Assembly (NCBI GenBank): GCA_001771935.1
Contig: MERD01000069.1
Location: forward strand, 6,111 to 70,110
DNA: 64,000 nt
From: Betaproteobacteria bacterium RIFCSPLOWO2_02_FULL_67_26
GTDB taxonomy: Bacteria; Pseudomonadota; Gammaproteobacteria; Burkholderiales; SG8-41
Reading direction: 5' to 3'
Below are positions 12,018 to 34,244 of the stretch, in pieces. A model generated the notes under the pieces. The model saw only the letters and a program-made list of their open reading frames with translations. It was not told the DNA's origin and searched no databases. The translations under genes and the position numbers were made by a program. Position 1 is the first letter of the stretch; each line of letters starts with the position of its first letter.

Positions 12018-14702
12018 CTACGCGGCGGCGATCAGCTCCCGCAATACGTAGGGCAGGATGCCGCCGTGCTGGTAGTAGTCCACCTCGATCGGCGTGTCGA
12101 TGCGAAGCGTAAGCGGCACGCTGTCCTTCCTGCCGTCCTTGCGCGTGATCGTCATGGTGACGTCCTGCATCGGGATGATTGCCTTCTCGATGCCGGCGAT
12201 GTCGATGACTTCGGAGCCGTCGAGGTTGAGCGTCTGTGCGGTGGTACCCGGCTTGAACTGCAGCGGCAACACGCCCATGAACACCAGATTGGCGCGGTGA
12301 ATGCGCTCGAAGTTGCGGACGATGCACGCCTTGACGCCCAGTAGCTGCGGGCCTTTTGCCGCCCAGTCGCGCGAGGATCCTTGCCCGTATTCATCGCCAC
12401 CGAACACCACCGACGGCACACCGTCCTTCTTGTAGCGCATCGCCGCCTCGTAGATCGAGGTCTGCTCGCCTGAAGGCTGGTGCACGGTGATGCCGCCCTC
12501 GGTGCCCGGCACCATCAGGTTCTTGATGCGGATGTTGGCGAACGTGCCGCGCATCATGACTTCGTGGTTGCCGCGGCGCGCGCCGTAGGTGTTGAAATCC
12601 GGCACCTTCACGCCGTGGTCCTGCAAGTACCGGCCGGCCGGCGCCGTGGCGCGGATCCCGCCAGCGGGGCTGATGTGGTCGGTCGTGATCGCGTCGCCGA
12701 AGATGCCCAGCACGCGCGCCCCCTTGACGTCGCCGACCTTGCCCGGCTTCATCGAGAAGCCTTCGAAGTAGGGCGGCAGCCGCACGTAGGTGGATTTCTC
12801 GTCCCAGCGGTAGGTGGCGCCGACCGAGGAGGGGATCTCGTCCCACATCGGGTTGCCTTCGCCGAACGCGGAGAACAGCTTGCGGTACATCTCGGGGTCG
12901 GTCGCGAACTTCATGACCGCGCCGATCTCCTGGCTCGAGGGCCAGATATCCTTCAGGAACACCGGCTTGCCGTCCTTGCCGGTGCCGATCGGGTCCTTCG
13001 ACATGTCGATGTTGATCGTCCCGGCGAGGCCGAACGCGACCACCAGCGGCGGGCTCATCAGGAAATTCGCCCGGATGTTCTGGTGAATGCGCGCCTCGAA
13101 ATTGCGGTTCCCGGACAGCACCGCGGCGGCAACGATGTCGTTTTTCGCGACGGCTTCGTCGATGTGGCCATCGAGCGGGCCGGAGTTGCCGATACAGGTG
13201 GTGCAGCCGTAACCGGCTACGTAGTAGCCCAGTTGCTCGAGATAGGGCAGCAGGCCCGAGTTCTTCAGGTACTCGGTGACGGCGAGCGAGCCCGGTCCGA
13301 GTGAAGTTTTCACCCGGGAGTGGGGCTTCAGGCCTCTTTCCACGGCCTTCTTGGCGAGCAGGCCCGCGCCCAGCAGCACGCCGGGGTTGGAGGTGTTGGT
13401 GCAGGAGGTGATGGCGGAGATCAGCACGTCGCCGTGGCCGACGTCGACCCCCGATTTGCTGGTCGGGACGCGCTTGCCCATCTCGCTGCCCTTGCCGTAA
13501 CCGCCGTCCGTGAAGCTCTTCCCCATCAGCTCGCGGTACTTGCTGCCGATCAGGGGCAGGTCGATATGGTCGTGCGGGCGGCGCGGTCCGGAGACGGCGG
13601 GCTTGACCTTGGAGAGTTCGAACTCGACGACCTGGCTGTAGTCGATGTCTCCCATCCTGGGCATGCCGTATAGGCCCTGCACTTTGAGATAAGCCTGGAC
13701 TGCCGGCACGATGTCGCCGCGCCCGGTCATCTTCAGGAACTCGCAGGAGACGTCGTCCACCGGGAAGAAGCCACAGGTCGCGCCGTATTCCGGGGACATG
13801 TTGCCGATGGTTGCGCGGTCGGGCACCGACAGCGACGCGGCGCCTTCGCCGAAGTACTCGACGAACTTGCCGACGACCTTGGTGTCGCGCAGCAGCTTGA
13901 CGATCGCGAGCACGAGGTCGGTGGCGGTCACGCCGTCATTCAGCTTGCCGGTCAGGTGCACGCCGACGACGTCGGGCTCGAGGAAGTACATCGGCTGGCC
14001 CAGCATGGCCGCCTCGGCCTCGATCCCGCCCACGCCCCAGCCCAGCACGCCGAGTCCGTTGACCATGGTGGTGTGCGAGTCGATGCCGACCAGGCTGTCG
14101 GGGTAGAACATGCCGTCCTTTTGCCATACCACCTGCGAGACGTACTCGAGGTTGATCTGGTGGCAGATGCCGTTGCCCGGCGGGATGATCTGGAAGGTCT
14201 TGAACGCGCCCGCGCTCCACTTCAGGAACTGGTAGCGCTCGCGGTTGCGCCTGAACTCGATCTCCATGTTCTGCTTGAGCGCATCGGCGGTGCCGTAATT
14301 GTCGATCTGTACCGAGTGGTCCATGATCAGGTGCCCGGGGCAGAGCGGCTCGATGATCTCGGGATTCTTGCCCATGGCTTTCGCGGCCTCGCGCATGGCG
14401 GCAAAGTCCACGACCAGCGGCACGCCCGTCATGTCCTGCAGCAGCACGCGCGCCACGACCAGCGGTACCTCCTCGTGGCGCTCGGCCTTGGGCTTCCAGC
14501 CGGCCATGTTCTTCAGGTGCGCTTCCGTGATCTTCTTGCCGTCGCAGTTGCGCAGCGCCGACTCGAGCACGACGCGGAGGCTCACCGGCAGGCGGGAAAT
14601 CGTTCCGAGCCCCGCTTGTTCCAGCGCGGGCAGCGAATAGTACTTGCCGGTCTTGCCGGCGTACTGGAACTCCTGGAGCGCGTTGAACAGGTTGTGGCTC
14701 AT
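12018..14702 (-). CDS. acnA: Aconitate hydratase, AcnA/IRP type (paralog 1)
   Basis: 894 aa. Fe-S ligands [10 protein letters not shown] and [13 protein letters not shown]. Catalytic motifs [26 protein letters not shown] and [10 protein letters not shown]. Confidence 0.9.
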
Positions 14703-14843
14703 GGTGGCTCCGTCAGCGCGGGACGAAAATTATATCTTGCGCCGGGTCAGTGGGATAGCGCTTGCCTGGATGCGGGCGATTCGGGAGCCGGAGGACGCCC
14801 GATGGGGGTGTGCTACCATCCGTCGCCGGAGGAGAAACGAACC

Positions 14844-31533: not shown

Positions 31534-31556
31534 GTCGTCTTCTCTCTATTTCGTGA

Positions 31557-34244
31557 TCAGGCGGCCATCAGCTCGCGCAGCACGTAAGGGAGAATCCCGC
31601 CGTGCTTGAGATACTCCACTTCGATCGGGGAATCCACGCGCAGCGTGACCGTGACGTTCTGCGTGGAGCCGTCCTGGCGGTGGATCATCAGCGTCACGTC
31701 CTGCAGCGGCTTCACGTTGCCGCCGGCGACGCCGGTGAGGTCGAAGGTCTCGCTGCCGTCGATCTTCAGCGACTGCACGCTGTCGGTTCCCTTGAACTGG
31801 CAGGGCAGCACGCCCATGCCGACGAGGTTCGAGCGATGGATGCGCTCGTAGCCGCGCGCCACGACCACCTTGATGCCGAGCATCTGCGTGCCCTTCGCCG
31901 CCCAGTCGCGCGAGGAGCCGGTGCCGTACTCCTCGCCGCCGAACACGAACAGCGGGATCTTGTCCTTCTGGTAGCGCATGGAGGCATCGAAGATCGTCAT
32001 CTTGTCGCCGCTCGGCTGGTGGATCGTCACGCCGCCCTCGGTGCCCGGCGCGAGCAGGTTCTTGATGCGCGGATTGGCGAACGCGCCGCGCACCATCACT
32101 TCGTGGTTGGTGCGGCGCGAGCCGAAGCTCGACAGGTCCTTGCTGCCGGCCGCGATCAACCAGTCGCCGGCCAGCGTGCCCTTGCGGATGGGCGCCACCG
32201 GGCTGATGTGGTCGGTGGTCAGCTTGTTGCCGAATATGCCCAGCGCGCGCCCCCCCTTGATATCGGTGACTTTGGGCAACTCACGCTTGAATCCTTCGAA
32301 CAGCGGTGGCTCGAGCATGTAGGTTGATTTCGGGTCCCACTGGAACAGCGCGCCTTTGGTTTCGGGAATGGCGTCCCACAGGTCTTTCGCGCCGGAGAGG
32401 TCGCCGTACTCGCGGCGGAAGTTTTCGCTGTTGGTCGCAAATTTCATCAATGCTTCCACTTCGGCCGGCGTGGGCCACAGGTCCTTCAGGAATACCGGCT
32501 GGCCGTTCTTGTCATTGCCGATGGGGTCGGTGTCGACGTTCTTCAGCACCGTCCCGGCGAGCGCAAACGCGACGACCAGCGGCGGGCTCATCAGGAAGTT
32601 GGCCTTCAGGCTCTGGTGCACCCGCGCCTCGAAGTTGCGGTTGCCCGAGAGCACGGCGGCGGAGATCACGTCGTTCTTGACGATGGCTTCCTCGAGATCC
32701 TTGTCCAGCGGGCCTGCCAGGCCCATACAGGTGGTGCAACCGTAGGCGACGACGTGGAAGCCGAGCTGTTCCAGGTAGGGCAGCAGCCCGGCCTGCTTCA
32801 GGTACGCGGTGACGACCTTGGAGCCGGGGGCCATCGACGTTTTGACGCGGGGATGCGGCTTCATGCCTCTCTCGACGGCCTTCTTGGCGATGAGGCCGGC
32901 GGCCAGCAACACCCAGGGGTTGGAGGTGTTCGTGCAGGACGTGATGGCGGCGATGCTGACATCACCATGTCCGACGTCACCGATGGCCGCATTGGCGACC
33001 GGGACGCGCTTGGCCAGGTCCGCGGCGGGCTTGTTGTAGCCGCTTTCGGCCACGGGCTTTGAGAACAGCTCGGTGAATCGGCTCTTGATGCCCTCGAGAT
33101 TGATGCGGTCCTCCGGCTGCTTCGGACCCGACACGCTGGGCCGCACCGTCGAGAGGTCGAGCTCGACGACCTGCGAGTAGTCGATCTCGCCTTTTTTCGG
33201 GATGCCGTACAGGCCCTGCACTTTAAGATAGCTCTCGATGGCATCGCAGTGCTGTTCGCGGCCCGACATGCGGTAGTAATCGAGCGTCTTGTCGTCGATC
33301 GCGAAAAAGCCGCAGGTCGCGCCGTAGTCGGGCGACATGTTGGCGACGGTCGCGCGGTCGGTGGGGGAGAGCGACGCGGCGCCTTCGCCGAGGTACTCGA
33401 CGAACTTGTTGACCACCTTGGTCTTGCGCAGCAGCTCGGTGACGGTGAGCACGAGGTCGGTCGCGGTGACGCCATCGCGCAGCTTGCCCGTCATGTGCAC
33501 GCCCACGACATCGGGCGTCAGGAAGTAGTAGGGCTGTCCCAGCATGCCGGCTTCGGCCTCGATGCCGCCCACGCCCCAGGCCAGCACGCCGATGGCGTTG
33601 ACCATCGTGGTATGCGAGTCGGTGCCGACGGCGGAATCGGGGTAATACACGCCGTCTTTCTCCCATACGCCGCGCGACAGGTACTCGAGGTTGACCTGGT
33701 GGCAGATGCCGTTGCCGGGCGGCACGACGCGGATGCCCGAGAACGCGGCCTTGGCCCACTTGAGGAAGGTGTAGCGCTCGCCGTTACGCTCGAACTCGAT
33801 TTCCATGTTCCTGCGCAGCGCGTCGGTCGAGTTGTGCACGTCGACGACGACGGAGTGGTCCACCACGAGATCCACCGGCACCAGCGGCTCGATGCGCTTC
33901 GGGTCGAATTTCTGGCGCTGCGCCTCGGCGCGCATGGCGGCGAAATCGTTCAACGCGGGGAAGCCCGCCATGTCCTGCAGCATGATGCGCGCGAGGACGA
34001 AAGGCAGCTCCTCGGTGCGCGGGGCGTTCGGCTTCCAGCCGGCGAGCTTGCGCACGGCGTCTTCCGTGATGCGCTTGCCGTCGCAGTTGCGGAGGATGGA
34101 CTCGAGCACCACGCGCAGGCTCACCGGCATGCGCGATACCCTGCCGAGTCCGGCTTCCTCGAGGGCGGCGAGCGAGTAATACTTTCCGGTATTGCCGGAC
34201 TTGAGCTTGAATTCCCTGCGGGCATGGAACGGGTCGTATGCCAT
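31557..34244 (-). CDS. acnA: Aconitate hydratase, AcnA/IRP type (paralog 3)
   Basis: 895 aa. [49 protein letters not shown] and [10 protein letters not shown] are all present. Confidence 0.9.

What the first reader, a model, noticed from the sequence alone, without database searches (positions are those of the whole stretch)
12018..34244. Three intact AcnA-type aconitase paralogs within 22 kb, all on the minus strand
Paralogs at 12018-14702, 28828-31533 and 31557-34244 are each about 895-900 aa. All retain the three Fe-S cysteines and the catalytic motifs ([27 protein letters not shown]), so none looks like a pseudogene. By eye they are only about 60-75% identical in aligned stretches (not computed), so the duplication or acquisition is old. 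Paralogs 2 and 3 resemble each other more closely: both share [12 protein letters not shown], and they have CTTCMG(A/L)AGPL where paralog 1 has the canonical [11 protein letters not shown]. Paralog 1 has GIDSHTTM instead of GTDSHTTM. Bacteria usually carry one AcnA, with or without AcnB, so three clustered AcnA-type enzymes suggests substrate specialisation (citrate versus methylcitrate or other alkyl-aconitates). Same-orientation homologous 2.7-kb segments flanking the accessory block could also mediate its amplification or deletion.
Basis: seen in the sequence. Interest (0 to 1): 0.6.

Follow-up and report, generated by a model that had tools for sequence, protein, structure and literature searches.

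The report
Three clustered aconitase A paralogs
Three intact copies of the citric-acid-cycle enzyme aconitase A lie within 22 kb of an uncultured Burkholderiales genome; two of them are always found side by side in relatives and share a matched change in a substrate-binding loop, which hints at divided labour, but no chemistry beyond ordinary aconitase is shown.

Summary
There are three intact AcnA-type ORFs of 894, 901 and 895 aa. They are 58-65% identical in protein and 69-73% in DNA, and every quoted motif is present. All three pass NCBI's AcnA equivalog cut-off and none passes the AcnD cut-off. dN/dS is 0.08-0.11.

Comparison with about 165 related loci shows the genes belong to a lineage-specific AcnA expansion in uncultured Burkholderiales, with four ortholog groups: Acn1, Acn2, Acn3 and AcnS.
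- Acn3 and Acn2 end a tightly spaced mdh-prpD-acn3-acn2 gene run. In relatives they were adjacent in 43 of 43 assessable loci.
- The pair occupies the slot that a single AcnS fills elsewhere. The closest relatives carry Acn3-Acn2-AcnS plus Acn1, so this window has lost AcnS and prpC.
- Acn1 is an older paralog that faces away from a tctB-tctA transporter operon.

First-shell catalytic residues are conserved. At the position of mitochondrial aconitase Arg580, stand-alone AcnAs are polar in 37 of 38 cases. Paired Acn3 is always Ala and paired Acn2 is always Tyr or Phe.

This supports subfunctionalisation of the pair, but substrates remain untested. Recombination between the paralogs is not supported, since the longest shared exact run is 27 nt. 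Interest is moderate.

The parts
12018..14702 (-). Acn1, an AcnA-type aconitate hydratase of 894 aa. It is the oldest of the three paralogs. The residue at IRP1 position 699 is His.
   Evidence: Intact ORF. TIGR01341 score 1290.6 against a cut-off of 945. More than 120 ortholog clusters at 84-94% identity. dN/dS 0.084. Monophyletic in 100/100 bootstraps.
14703..14843 (.). Divergent intergenic region of about 140 bp between Acn1 and tctB, holding a TATAAT-like element about 30 nt upstream of the Acn1 start codon.
   Evidence: Sequence read. The block CGCTATCCCACTGAC...ATATAATT is shared with L084 and L078. Function as a promoter is inferred only.
14844..16848 (+). tctB (14844-15305) and tctA (15334-16848), subunits of a tripartite tricarboxylate transporter, transcribed away from Acn1.
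   Evidence: TctA Pfam match, E = 3.8e-164. tctB is 69% identical to the TctB of L084 by tblastn. The same Acn1 / tctB-tctA arrangement occurs in L078, L079, L080 and L084.
16943..28820 (.). Variable accessory block between the aconitase sites. It holds a PanE-like reductase, tctC, a second tctA and tctB, a PuuE-like deacetylase, an HMGL/isopropylmalate-synthase-like gene (22214-23449), PDH-type E2/E1-beta/E1-alpha (24362-27622, minus strand) and a luciferase-like monooxygenase (27717-28820).
   Evidence: Pfam and NCBIfam scans. Gene content differs among relatives: leuCD-like and Iso_dh-like genes are present in L078, L084 and L085 but absent here.
28828..31533 (-). Acn2, an AcnA-type aconitate hydratase of 901 aa, and the last gene of the minus-strand mdh-prpD-acn3-acn2 run. 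The residue at IRP1 position 699 is Phe.
   Evidence: TIGR01341 score 1184.9. Orthologs at 84-93% identity were found only in uncultured Burkholderiales and Betaproteobacteria assemblies. Always next to an Acn3 or other AcnA gene where this can be assessed. 21 pairing-associated substitutions. dN/dS 0.110.
31557..34244 (-). Acn3, an AcnA-type aconitate hydratase of 895 aa, 23 nt upstream of Acn2. It carries E302D and has Ala at IRP1 position 699.
   Evidence: TIGR01341 score 1199.5. It nests within the AcnS grade (Acn3+AcnS supported in 97/100 bootstraps). The SRR-equivalent sequence WL(V/I)AA is present in all 45 orthologs. dN/dS 0.114.
34281..35723 (-). prpD, 2-methylcitrate dehydratase, 36 nt upstream of Acn3.
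   Evidence: NF006943 score 886.9 against a cut-off of 575, and TIGR02330 score 860 against 458. Spacer sequences read.
35746..36732 (-). mdh, malate dehydrogenase, the first gene of the minus-strand run. The mechanical ORF extends to 37173, but homology begins at about residue 147.
   Evidence: Ldh_1_N and Ldh_1_C domains at residues 152-472 of the 475-aa ORF. tblastn matches in relatives start at residues 134-147. There are 22 nt between the mdh stop and the prpD start and no terminator-like site on the minus strand.
37134..45839 (+). sdhC(D)AB, gltA, sucA and sucB: the divergent TCA supercluster that fixes Acn3/Acn2 in the ancestral acnA slot.
   Evidence: Pfam scans. The same order is seen in about 40 related loci.

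Best explanation
The three genes are three functional [4Fe-4S] AcnA-family aconitate hydratases. They belong to a lineage-specific AcnA expansion in an uncultured Burkholderiales family, which has four ortholog groups: Acn1, Acn2, Acn3 and AcnS.

Acn3 and Acn2 form a linked pair that is probably co-transcribed. The pair occupies the ancestral acnA slot at the end of the mdh-(prpC)-prpD operon, in place of or alongside the single generalist AcnS. The two have subfunctionalised. Both lost the polar residue at the position of mitochondrial aconitase Arg580, which lies in the domain-4 loop equivalent to the substrate-recognition region of isopropylmalate isomerase and homoaconitase. I infer that they divide the aconitase work of that operon between them. 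The most likely split is citrate/isocitrate versus the 2-methyl-cis-aconitate that PrpD makes.

Acn1 keeps the generalist signature. It has its own promoter region facing a TctBA tricarboxylate importer and probably acts as the independently regulated housekeeping or uptake-linked aconitase.

Shown here: intactness, family membership, purifying selection, conserved synteny, and the link between pairing and this residue. Inferred: co-transcription, the division of labour, and the substrates.
For: Family membership and intactness are established. Purifying selection acts on all three, with dN/dS of 0.08-0.11.

The ortholog groups are discrete. Acn1, Acn2 and Acn3 each have 100/100 bootstrap support; Acn3+AcnS has 97, Acn2+Acn3+AcnS has 100, and all four against other betaproteobacterial AcnAs has 87.

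Pair adjacency: 43 GTDB loci show the pair adjacent, 0 show it non-adjacent and 11 cannot be assessed. Both gene orders occur, and many more adjacent pairs appear in metagenome contigs. The pair keeps together in three contexts: after prpD, beside tctB-tctA, and beside ispZ.

In the window the spacers are 22, 36 and 23 nt, each start codon has a Shine-Dalgarno-like sequence upstream, and there is no minus-strand terminator.

Relatives at similar distance carry a single AcnS in the same slot. The nearest relatives carry Acn3-Acn2-AcnS, and adds contig-length matches consistent with AcnS and Acn2 sharing a contig.

At the IRP1 R699 / mAcn R580 position, stand-alone AcnAs are 37 polar and 1 Leu. 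Paired copies are 90 Ala (Acn3), 85 Tyr/Phe (Acn2) and 3 polar. Single-copy proteins that branch at the base of Acn3 (L101, L102, L106) and of Acn2 (L154) still have His there.

Of the 28 pairing-associated substitutions, 10 lie within 6 residues of catalytic positions, against 17% expected (P = 0.015).

In the aconitase superfamily a domain-4 / small-subunit loop sets substrate preference (PMC7308503). AcnA and AcnB hydrate the PrpD product (PMC8184944 figure legend). A true prpC lies between mdh and prpD in relatives (NF009006 score 695 against a cut-off of 550).
Against: No enzymology or expression data exist.

All first-shell catalytic and cluster residues are identical in the three proteins except the conservative E302D.

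The Arg580-equivalent residue is not Arg even in single-copy betaproteobacterial AcnAs, where it is H, N, K or S. Its role in AcnA is therefore uncertain. The mapping of the isopropylmalate isomerase recognition loop onto AcnA rests on motif correspondence and my recollection, not on a structure.

The window has lost prpC, and none of the predicted genes scanned resembled prpB. This weakens the methylcitrate reading for this particular genome.

Pairwise-distance correlation between Acn2 and Acn3 is 0.47, no higher than with PrpD (0.50-0.57), so there is no special co-evolution signal.

The trees are neighbour-joining and the Acn2 and Acn3 stems are long, so branching order may be distorted. 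Some loci in the two collections are the same contig, so the counts are not fully independent.
Confidence: 0.45

Rival explanations
1. The three are redundant isozymes with the same substrates that differ only in regulation or robustness, for example in cluster stability under oxidative stress or iron limitation. This would resemble the AcnA versus AcnB division in E. coli.
For: First-shell residues are identical. All three pass the AcnA equivalog cut-off. Acn1 has its own promoter region, separate from the mdh operon. Multiple acnA genes with stress-linked expression are reported in Paraburkholderia xenovorans (PMC8859910). Substitutions next to the cluster ligands (I507M, N509A/L, A433S, A444W) could tune cluster stability rather than specificity.
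Against: Acn2 and Acn3 are 23 nt apart in one apparent operon and are never separated in relatives. This is hard to reconcile with differential regulation of two equivalent enzymes. The strict link between pairing and loss of the polar residue at position 699 is not expected for simple redundancy.
Confidence: 0.3
2. Acn2 and Acn3 are an obligate two-enzyme system or complex. Either each is specialised for one half-reaction or one binding mode (citrate to cis-aconitate, then cis-aconitate to isocitrate), or one acts as an AcnD-like dehydratase of an alkyl-citrate and the other as the hydratase.
For: Adjacency is absolute, in either gene order and in several genomic contexts. Both members have lost the polar residue that all stand-alone AcnAs keep. 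In loci such as L055 and L109 the pair is the only AcnA between ispZ and prpD. Three relatives carry a PrpF-family isomerase gene between prpD and Acn3. A precedent for split dehydration and hydration is AcnD/PrpF followed by AcnA or AcnB (PMC5690661 abstract; PMC8184944).
Against: AcnA enzymes are monomeric and bifunctional as far as is known (established knowledge). The AcnD model scores are 769-814 against a cut-off of 1420. The PrpF-like gene is below both family cut-offs and is present in only 3 loci. The distance correlation shows no extra co-evolution signal. Whole genomes were not available, so other aconitases such as AcnB cannot be excluded.
Confidence: 0.12
3. One paralog has become mainly a regulatory RNA-binding apo-protein, like IRP1 or apo-AcnA, rather than an enzyme.
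For: The AcnA/IRP1 family is known to moonlight in this way (established knowledge; PMC11317140 title and abstract). The proteins are 46-50% identical to human IRP1.
Against: All cluster ligands and catalytic residues are kept in every ortholog of all three groups. Nothing in the sequences marks a loss of catalysis. No RNA element was detected near the genes.
Confidence: 0.04
4. The copies are recent duplications or acquisitions whose main significance is as direct repeats that drive amplification or deletion of the block between them.
For: All three are in the same orientation. The gene content of the intervening block does vary among relatives.
Against: DNA identity is 69-73% and the longest exact shared run is 21-27 nt. 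That is at or below the minimal length generally needed for efficient RecA recombination (established knowledge). Each paralog has an ancient ortholog group of its own. No chimeric Acn1/Acn3 gene was seen in any locus.
Confidence: 0.02

Closest known systems
Bacterial aconitate hydratase A (AcnA, e.g. E. coli b1276; NCBIfam TIGR01341)
   Same: Full-length 1-2-3-linker-4 architecture. Identity to E. coli AcnA is 50-53%. All three score above the equivalog cut-off and have the same cluster ligands and catalytic residues.
   Different: There are three copies here and four in the nearest relatives. Acn3 has E302D. Acn3 and Acn2 have Ala and Phe/Tyr where E. coli AcnA, IRP1 and mitochondrial aconitase have Arg. 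Both have CTTCMG instead of CTTCIG.
AcnD/PrpF branch of the 2-methylcitrate cycle (Shewanella, Cupriavidus AcnM)
   Same: An AcnA-like paralog dedicated to propionate-derived tricarboxylates, encoded beside prp genes. The idea of a second aconitase-family enzyme doing one step is the same (PMC5690661).
   Different: None of the three reaches the AcnD model cut-off (769-814 against 1420). The window encodes PrpD rather than PrpF. A PrpF-family gene occurs in only 3 relatives and is below cut-off.
Substrate-recognition-region specialisation of isopropylmalate isomerase / homoaconitase small subunits (Arabidopsis IPMI SSU1-3; Methanocaldococcus HACN/IPMI)
   Same: Paralogous domain-4 modules whose short flexible loop, not the conserved GSSR motif, sets substrate preference (PMC7308503). 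Here the [10 protein letters not shown] motif is invariant and the loop differs by paralog.
   Different: Those systems are heterodimers sharing one large subunit, whereas these are complete single-chain AcnAs. The equivalence of the loop is inferred from motif order (TTDHISP...(Y/W)L+3) and was not tested structurally.
Cytosolic aconitase / IRP1 (PDB 2B3X, 2B3Y)
   Same: It is the best solved-structure match, E = 1.8e-270 over residues 39-898 of Acn2. All 19 checked active-site positions align.
   Different: 46-50% identity. RNA-binding function is not assessable here. R699 is not conserved.
Multiple acnA genes in cultured Burkholderiales (Paraburkholderia xenovorans acnA1, acnA2 plus AcnB)
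   Same: More than one AcnA gene per genome in the same order (PMC8859910).
   Different: Those copies are not reported as an adjacent conserved pair. No cultured genome among the GTDB species representatives carried an Acn2 ortholog of 84% identity or more.

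Membership tests
AcnA (aconitate hydratase A) | Full-length match to the curated equivalog model TIGR01341 above its cut-off of 945 bits | tested here: met
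   Scores are 1290.6 for Acn1, 1184.9 for Acn2 and 1199.5 for Acn3. NF009520 and NF006757 are also passed.
AcnA (aconitate hydratase A) | Single chain of about 890 aa with Aconitase (PF00330) followed by Aconitase_C (PF00694) | tested here: met
   The model alignments run end to end. PF00330 and PF00694 are recorded for the exact Acn2 protein and for all listed orthologs.
AcnA (aconitate hydratase A) | Three cysteine ligands of the [4Fe-4S] cluster (IRP1 C437, C503, C506) | tested here: met
   Invariant in the window proteins and in all 41, 44 and 45 orthologs.
AcnA (aconitate hydratase A) | Catalytic and substrate-binding residues (IRP1 Q86, D125, H126, H178, D205, S206, H207, N298, E302, N535, R536, R541, S778, S779, R780) | tested here: met
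   All are identical, except E302D in Acn3 and in every AcnS.
AcnA (aconitate hydratase A) | Arg at IRP1 R699 / mitochondrial aconitase R580 (domain-4 substrate contact) | tested here: inconclusive
   The residue is His in Acn1, Phe in Acn2 and Ala in Acn3. It is also not Arg (H, N, K or S) in single-copy betaproteobacterial AcnAs, so it is not a reliable family criterion.
AcnA (aconitate hydratase A) | Citrate to isocitrate isomerase activity | not testable with these tools
AcnD (Fe/S-dependent 2-methylisocitrate dehydratase) | Match to TIGR02333 above 1419.85 bits | tested here: not met
   Scores are 786.0, 813.8 and 768.6.
AcnD (Fe/S-dependent 2-methylisocitrate dehydratase) | Adjacent prpF gene | tested here: not met
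   tblastn found no PrpF-like match in the window. A PrpF-family gene, below both cut-offs, is present in L033, L043 and L058 only.
PrpD-type 2-methylcitrate cycle gene set | prpC, prpD and prpB together with an aconitase | tested here: inconclusive
   prpD is present. prpC is absent from the 64-kb window, though it lies between mdh and prpD in nearly all relatives. None of the predicted genes that were scanned resembled an isocitrate-lyase-family prpB; four short predicted ORFs (3-422, 39408-40103 aside, 56165-56887 and 63300-63764 among them) were not scanned. The rest of the genome was not seen.
IRP1-type RNA-binding regulator | Specific binding of an RNA stem-loop by the apo-protein | not testable with these tools
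   Only the sequence relationship (46-50% identity) could be measured.

The most novel reading that the evidence does not exclude
Acn3 and Acn2 together form a split aconitase. The single generalist enzyme of the mdh-prpC-prpD-acnA operon has been replaced by two obligately co-inherited AcnA paralogs. Each is specialised for one substrate, one binding mode or one half-reaction, so neither alone suffices. This would be a natural case of subfunctionalisation inside the TCA cycle, marked by complementary loss of the Arg580-equivalent polar residue.
Probability: 0.17. Interest if true: 0.65.

Novelty: new variant of a known kind. Interest (0 to 1): 0.4.

Why it matters
If the pair has divided the aconitase job, it offers a ready-made natural experiment. 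It could show how a central, mechanistically intricate Fe-S enzyme can be split after duplication, and which domain-4 residues govern substrate handling in AcnA.

There is also a practical point. All four ortholog groups are annotated simply as AcnA in public records. Metabolic reconstructions of these widespread freshwater, soil and groundwater Burkholderiales therefore treat them as redundant.

If they are merely isozymes, the finding is an ordinary gene-family expansion.

Tried and rejected
- I first read the loss of Arg at IRP1 R699 as direct evidence of altered specificity. I rejected it as stand-alone evidence, because single-copy betaproteobacterial AcnAs also lack Arg there. Only the contrast between polar and non-polar residues, linked to pairing, survived.
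- I looked for a co-evolution signal between Acn2 and Acn3. Their distance correlation (0.47) is no higher than with PrpD.
- AcnD membership was tested and not met.
- A PrpF link is present in only 3 loci and scores below cut-off.
- I aligned the regions upstream of Acn1 and of Acn3 in the loci where the pair sits in Acn1's place. Only a short -10-like block is shared, and no common operator was found.
- Scans for promoters and terminators and for Rfam families found nothing relevant near the genes.
- BLASTP of a LeuD-like protein against AcnA domain 4 aligned only the GSSR region, so it could not confirm the loop equivalence.
- Literature searches for tandem or multiple acnA genes and for Arg580 gave no study of such a pair.
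- I could not establish whether these genomes also encode AcnB or prpB, because only windows of about 20 kb around the genes were retrievable.

Full report
OBSERVATION. The three ORFs exist exactly as described. They lie at 12018-14702, 28828-31533 and 31557-34244 on the minus strand and encode 894, 901 and 895 aa with no internal stops. I call them Acn1, Acn2 and Acn3. Protein identities are 57.8% (Acn1/Acn2), 61.5% (Acn1/Acn3) and 64.9% (Acn2/Acn3). DNA identities are 69-73%. Each protein passes NCBI's AcnA equivalog model TIGR01341 (1291, 1185 and 1200 bits; cut-off 945). None approaches the AcnD model (769-814 bits; cut-off 1420). The best solved structure is human IRP1 (E = 1.8e-270). Identity is 50-53% to E. 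coli AcnA and 46-50% to IRP1.

CONTEXT IN THE WINDOW. The region is the betaproteobacterial TCA supercluster.
- On the plus strand run sdhC(D)AB, gltA, sucA, sucB and lpd.
- Diverging from them on the minus strand are mdh, prpD (a true 2-methylcitrate dehydratase equivalog, 887 bits against a cut-off of 575), Acn3 and Acn2. The spacers are 22, 36 and 23 nt, each start codon has a Shine-Dalgarno-like sequence upstream, and there is no terminator-like site on that strand. Co-transcription is inferred, not shown.
- Acn1 lies 14 kb further on. It diverges across a 140-bp intergenic region from tctB-tctA, which encode tripartite tricarboxylate transporter subunits.
- Between the two aconitase sites is a block of organic-acid genes: a PanE-like reductase, tctC, a second tctA and tctB, a PuuE-like deacetylase, an isopropylmalate/homocitrate-synthase-like HMGL protein, PDH-type E1/E2 genes and a luciferase-like monooxygenase.

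RELATIVES. I scanned one genome per GTDB species with Acn2, scanned metagenome contigs with AcnS, ran three protein searches and made eight look-ups of encoding contigs. Together these gave about 165 loci. All close relatives come from uncultured Burkholderiales or Betaproteobacteria assemblies from lakes, groundwater, soil and sediment. A few records carry obviously wrong organism names. Acn2 orthologs are 84-93% identical, after which identity drops to 67% or less. Acn1 and Acn3 likewise have tight ortholog groups. A fourth group, which I call AcnS, is 66-74% identical to Acn3.

PHYLOGENY. I built a neighbour-joining tree with 100 bootstraps. Support values are:
- Acn1, Acn2 and Acn3: 100 each.
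- Acn3+AcnS: 97. AcnS is a paraphyletic grade, and Acn3 sits within it on a long stem.
- Acn2+Acn3+AcnS: 100.
- All four against the AcnAs of Usitatibacter, Nitrosospira, Casimicrobiaceae and Massilia: 87.
The expansion is therefore internal to this lineage and old. Long stems mean the exact order of branching should be treated cautiously.

SYNTENY. The ancestral arrangement, also seen in Nitrosospira and Casimicrobiaceae, is mdh-prpC-prpD-acnA. The slot after prpD holds different contents in different genomes of the family.
- A single AcnS: L044, L049, L053, L054, L060, L064, L086-L093, and the 4.02-Mb contig L166.
- The Acn3-Acn2 pair, in most loci.
- Acn3-Acn2-AcnS, in the window's nearest relatives L001, L083 and L167. 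Matching contig lengths suggest five further contigs also carry both Acn2 and AcnS, but these were not fetched.

The window is closest to this last type. It has cleanly lost AcnS (7 bp between Acn2 and the monooxygenase gene) and prpC (22 bp between mdh and prpD; no prpC anywhere in the 64 kb).

Acn2 is never found without an adjacent AcnA gene. In the GTDB loci it is adjacent to Acn3 in 43 loci, non-adjacent in 0 and not assessable in 11, with both gene orders represented. The pair also travels as a unit to other places. One is beside tctB-tctA-Iso_dh-leuCD, exactly where Acn1 sits in the window (L004, L010, L013, L016, L025, L035-L037, L085, L140). Another is beside ispZ, convergent with prpD (L024, L055, L109).

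Acn1 orthologs keep the divergent tctB-tctA neighbour. They co-occur with AcnS on long contigs; on the 4-Mb contig the two genes are 48 kb apart. The clustering of an Acn1-type and a TCA-slot aconitase around a variable accessory block is therefore a conserved feature of the family, not a recent accident of this genome.

ARE THEY ALL FUNCTIONAL? Against the nearest relative, dN/dS is 0.084 for Acn1, 0.110 for Acn2 and 0.114 for Acn3. This is as low as or lower than for the neighbouring genes. In an alignment numbered on IRP1, the three cluster cysteines and Q86, D125, H126, H178, D205, S206, H207, N298, N535, R536, R541, S778, S779 and R780 are invariant in every member of every group. E302 is Asp in all Acn3 and AcnS. 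Nothing suggests a pseudogene or a dead enzyme.

IS THERE EVIDENCE OF SPECIALISATION? First-shell identity argues against a gross change of chemistry. Several observations nevertheless point to divergence within the Acn2/Acn3 pair.

(a) Two equivalent enzymes that are co-transcribed and never separated would be hard to explain.

(b) The domain-4 segment after TTDHISP contains R580 in mitochondrial aconitase and R699 in IRP1. By motif order it corresponds to the short substrate-recognition region that sets specificity in isopropylmalate isomerase and homoaconitase small subunits (PMC7308503; the equivalence is my inference). This segment is group-specific: Acn1 has YLQ(D/E)H, AcnS has WLxxH/K/N/R/Q, Acn3 has WL(V/I)AA and Acn2 has WLEP(Y/F).

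(c) I examined 261 AcnA ORFs across all loci. Stand-alone genes have a polar residue at this position in 37 cases and Leu in 1. Paired genes have Ala in 90 cases (Acn3), Tyr or Phe in 85 (Acn2) and a polar residue in only 3. Those three are the AcnS third member in L001 and L083 and the unusual partner in L130. Some contigs occur in both collections, so the counts are inflated, but the split is categorical.

(d) Single-copy proteins that branch at the base of Acn3 (L101, L102, L106) and of Acn2 (L154) still have His. The change therefore accompanies pairing.

(e) Seven substitutions in Acn3 and 21 in Acn2 are fixed in paired copies and absent from all stand-alone AcnAs. Ten of these 28 lie within six residues of a catalytic position, against 17% expected (P = 0.015).

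CAUTIONS. The residue is not Arg even in ordinary betaproteobacterial AcnAs. No structure was used. No activity is known.

MOST LIKELY MECHANISM. All three are active AcnA-type hydro-lyases. Acn3 and Acn2 are a subfunctionalised pair that together do the work of the single AcnS in the mdh-prpC-prpD-acn operon. That operon needs an aconitase both for citrate/isocitrate and for hydrating the 2-methyl-cis-aconitate made by PrpD; AcnA and AcnB do this in other bacteria (PMC8184944). This is the most natural line of division, but it is inference, and the window's loss of prpC weakens it for this genome. Acn1 keeps the generalist signature and has its own promoter region facing a tricarboxylate importer. 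It is probably a separately regulated aconitase.

RIVALS. These are plain isozyme redundancy with different stability or regulation, a true two-step or heteromeric system, and a regulatory RNA-binding copy. None is excluded.

THE RECOMBINATION IDEA. It is not supported. DNA identity is 69-73% and the longest exact shared runs are 21, 23 and 27 nt. No chimeric genes were seen in any locus. The content of the block does vary among relatives, but by gain and loss of individual genes.

COMPARISON WITH WHAT IS KNOWN, AND NOVELTY. By every testable criterion these are members of the AcnA family, not of AcnD. More than one acnA per genome is already reported in Burkholderiales (P. xenovorans acnA1, acnA2; PMC8859910). 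I could not find any description of an obligately adjacent AcnA-AcnA pair with a pairing-linked change in the domain-4 loop, one that alternates with a single generalist gene at the same chromosomal slot. I rate it a new variant of a known kind, of moderate interest. It yields a clear, testable hypothesis about subfunctionalisation of a central Fe-S enzyme, but nothing observed requires new chemistry.

Noticed in passing
window 35724-35745 (mdh-prpD spacer); compare L006 3751-4908: prpC (2-methylcitrate synthase, NF009006 score 695 against a cut-off of 550) lies between mdh and prpD in nearly all relatives. It is cleanly absent here and nowhere else in the 64 kb. prpD is retained and intact.
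   Followed up: partly
window 28821-28827; compare L083 6269-8956, L001 12810-15488, L167 10001-12667: The nearest relatives have a third tandem aconitase (AcnS) after Acn2, giving four AcnA genes within about 25 kb. The window has lost it without any remnant.
   Followed up: yes
window 22214-23449 (+): An HMGL-family protein of 411 aa resembles isopropylmalate, homocitrate and citramalate synthases but is below every equivalog cut-off (best score 314 against 485). It is the most conserved gene of the accessory block, at 92-95% identity in L049, L053, L054 and L091. In relatives it travels with leuCD-like and isocitrate/isopropylmalate-dehydrogenase-like genes and TTT transporters, which suggests an uncharacterised alkyl-malate or 2-oxoacid pathway.
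   Followed up: partly
L078 2292-7557; L084 3439-7633; L085 1619-4799: Next to Acn1 (or next to the pair in some genomes), relatives carry tctB-tctA, an Iso_dh-family dehydrogenase (371 bits against a cut-off of 510 for isocitrate dehydrogenase) and leuC/leuD-like genes that pass the LeuC and LeuD cut-offs. All of these except tctB-tctA are missing from the window.
   Followed up: partly
L033 5995-7263, L043 2773-4059, L058 5711-7126: A PrpF / 4-oxalomesaconate-tautomerase-family gene sits between prpD and Acn3 in one subclade. It scores 283 against a cut-off of 440 and 143 against 440.
   Followed up: partly
17 loci, e.g. L062 1953-2501: A small secreted thioredoxin-fold protein of about 180 aa with a CxxC motif is encoded between prpD and the aconitase gene in many relatives. 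It is absent from the window.
   Followed up: no
alignment column of IRP1 R699 (window Acn1 residue ~695, Acn2 ~702, Acn3 ~696): The Arg that contacts substrate in mitochondrial aconitase (R580) and is kept in IRP1 and E. coli AcnA is H, N, K or S in single-copy betaproteobacterial AcnAs. It is therefore not a universal AcnA residue.
   Followed up: yes
window 12018-14702, 28828-34244 versus neighbours: Synonymous divergence from the nearest relative is lower in the three aconitase genes (dS 0.43-0.61) than in the neighbouring genes (0.67-1.10). This could reflect strong codon bias from high expression, or some exchange of these genes between lineages.
   Followed up: no
window 24362-27622 (-) and 27717-28820 (+): A PDH-type E1-alpha/E1-beta/E2 set without its own E3 lies beside a luciferase-like monooxygenase. 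This pairing follows the aconitase slot in many relatives.
   Followed up: no
window 48427-49413 (+) and 54075-56183 (-): An acrylyl-CoA reductase (YhdH/AcuI family, 429 bits against a cut-off of 297) and an acetyl/propionyl-CoA-synthetase-like enzyme lie downstream of the TCA cluster. Both are relevant to propionate metabolism.
   Followed up: no
window 56229-56327 (+) and 53900-53988 (-): A bacterial small SRP RNA and a tRNA gene. The mechanical ORF at 56165-56887 overlapping the SRP RNA is probably spurious.
   Followed up: no
L001, L011, L014, L015, L018, L025 and others (record titles): Several MAG records that are clearly Burkholderiales by gene content carry the organism names Streptomycetaceae, Chitinophaga pinensis or Bordetella parapertussis. 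These are likely taxonomy labelling errors in the public records.
   Followed up: no
L130 7235-12652; L154 9998-12703; L101, L102, L106: Rare variants at the prpD slot: Acn2 paired with a divergent partner that has Arg in the loop (YLLER); a single gene basal to Acn2; and single Acn3-like genes that keep His. These look like intermediate states in the history of the pair.
   Followed up: partly
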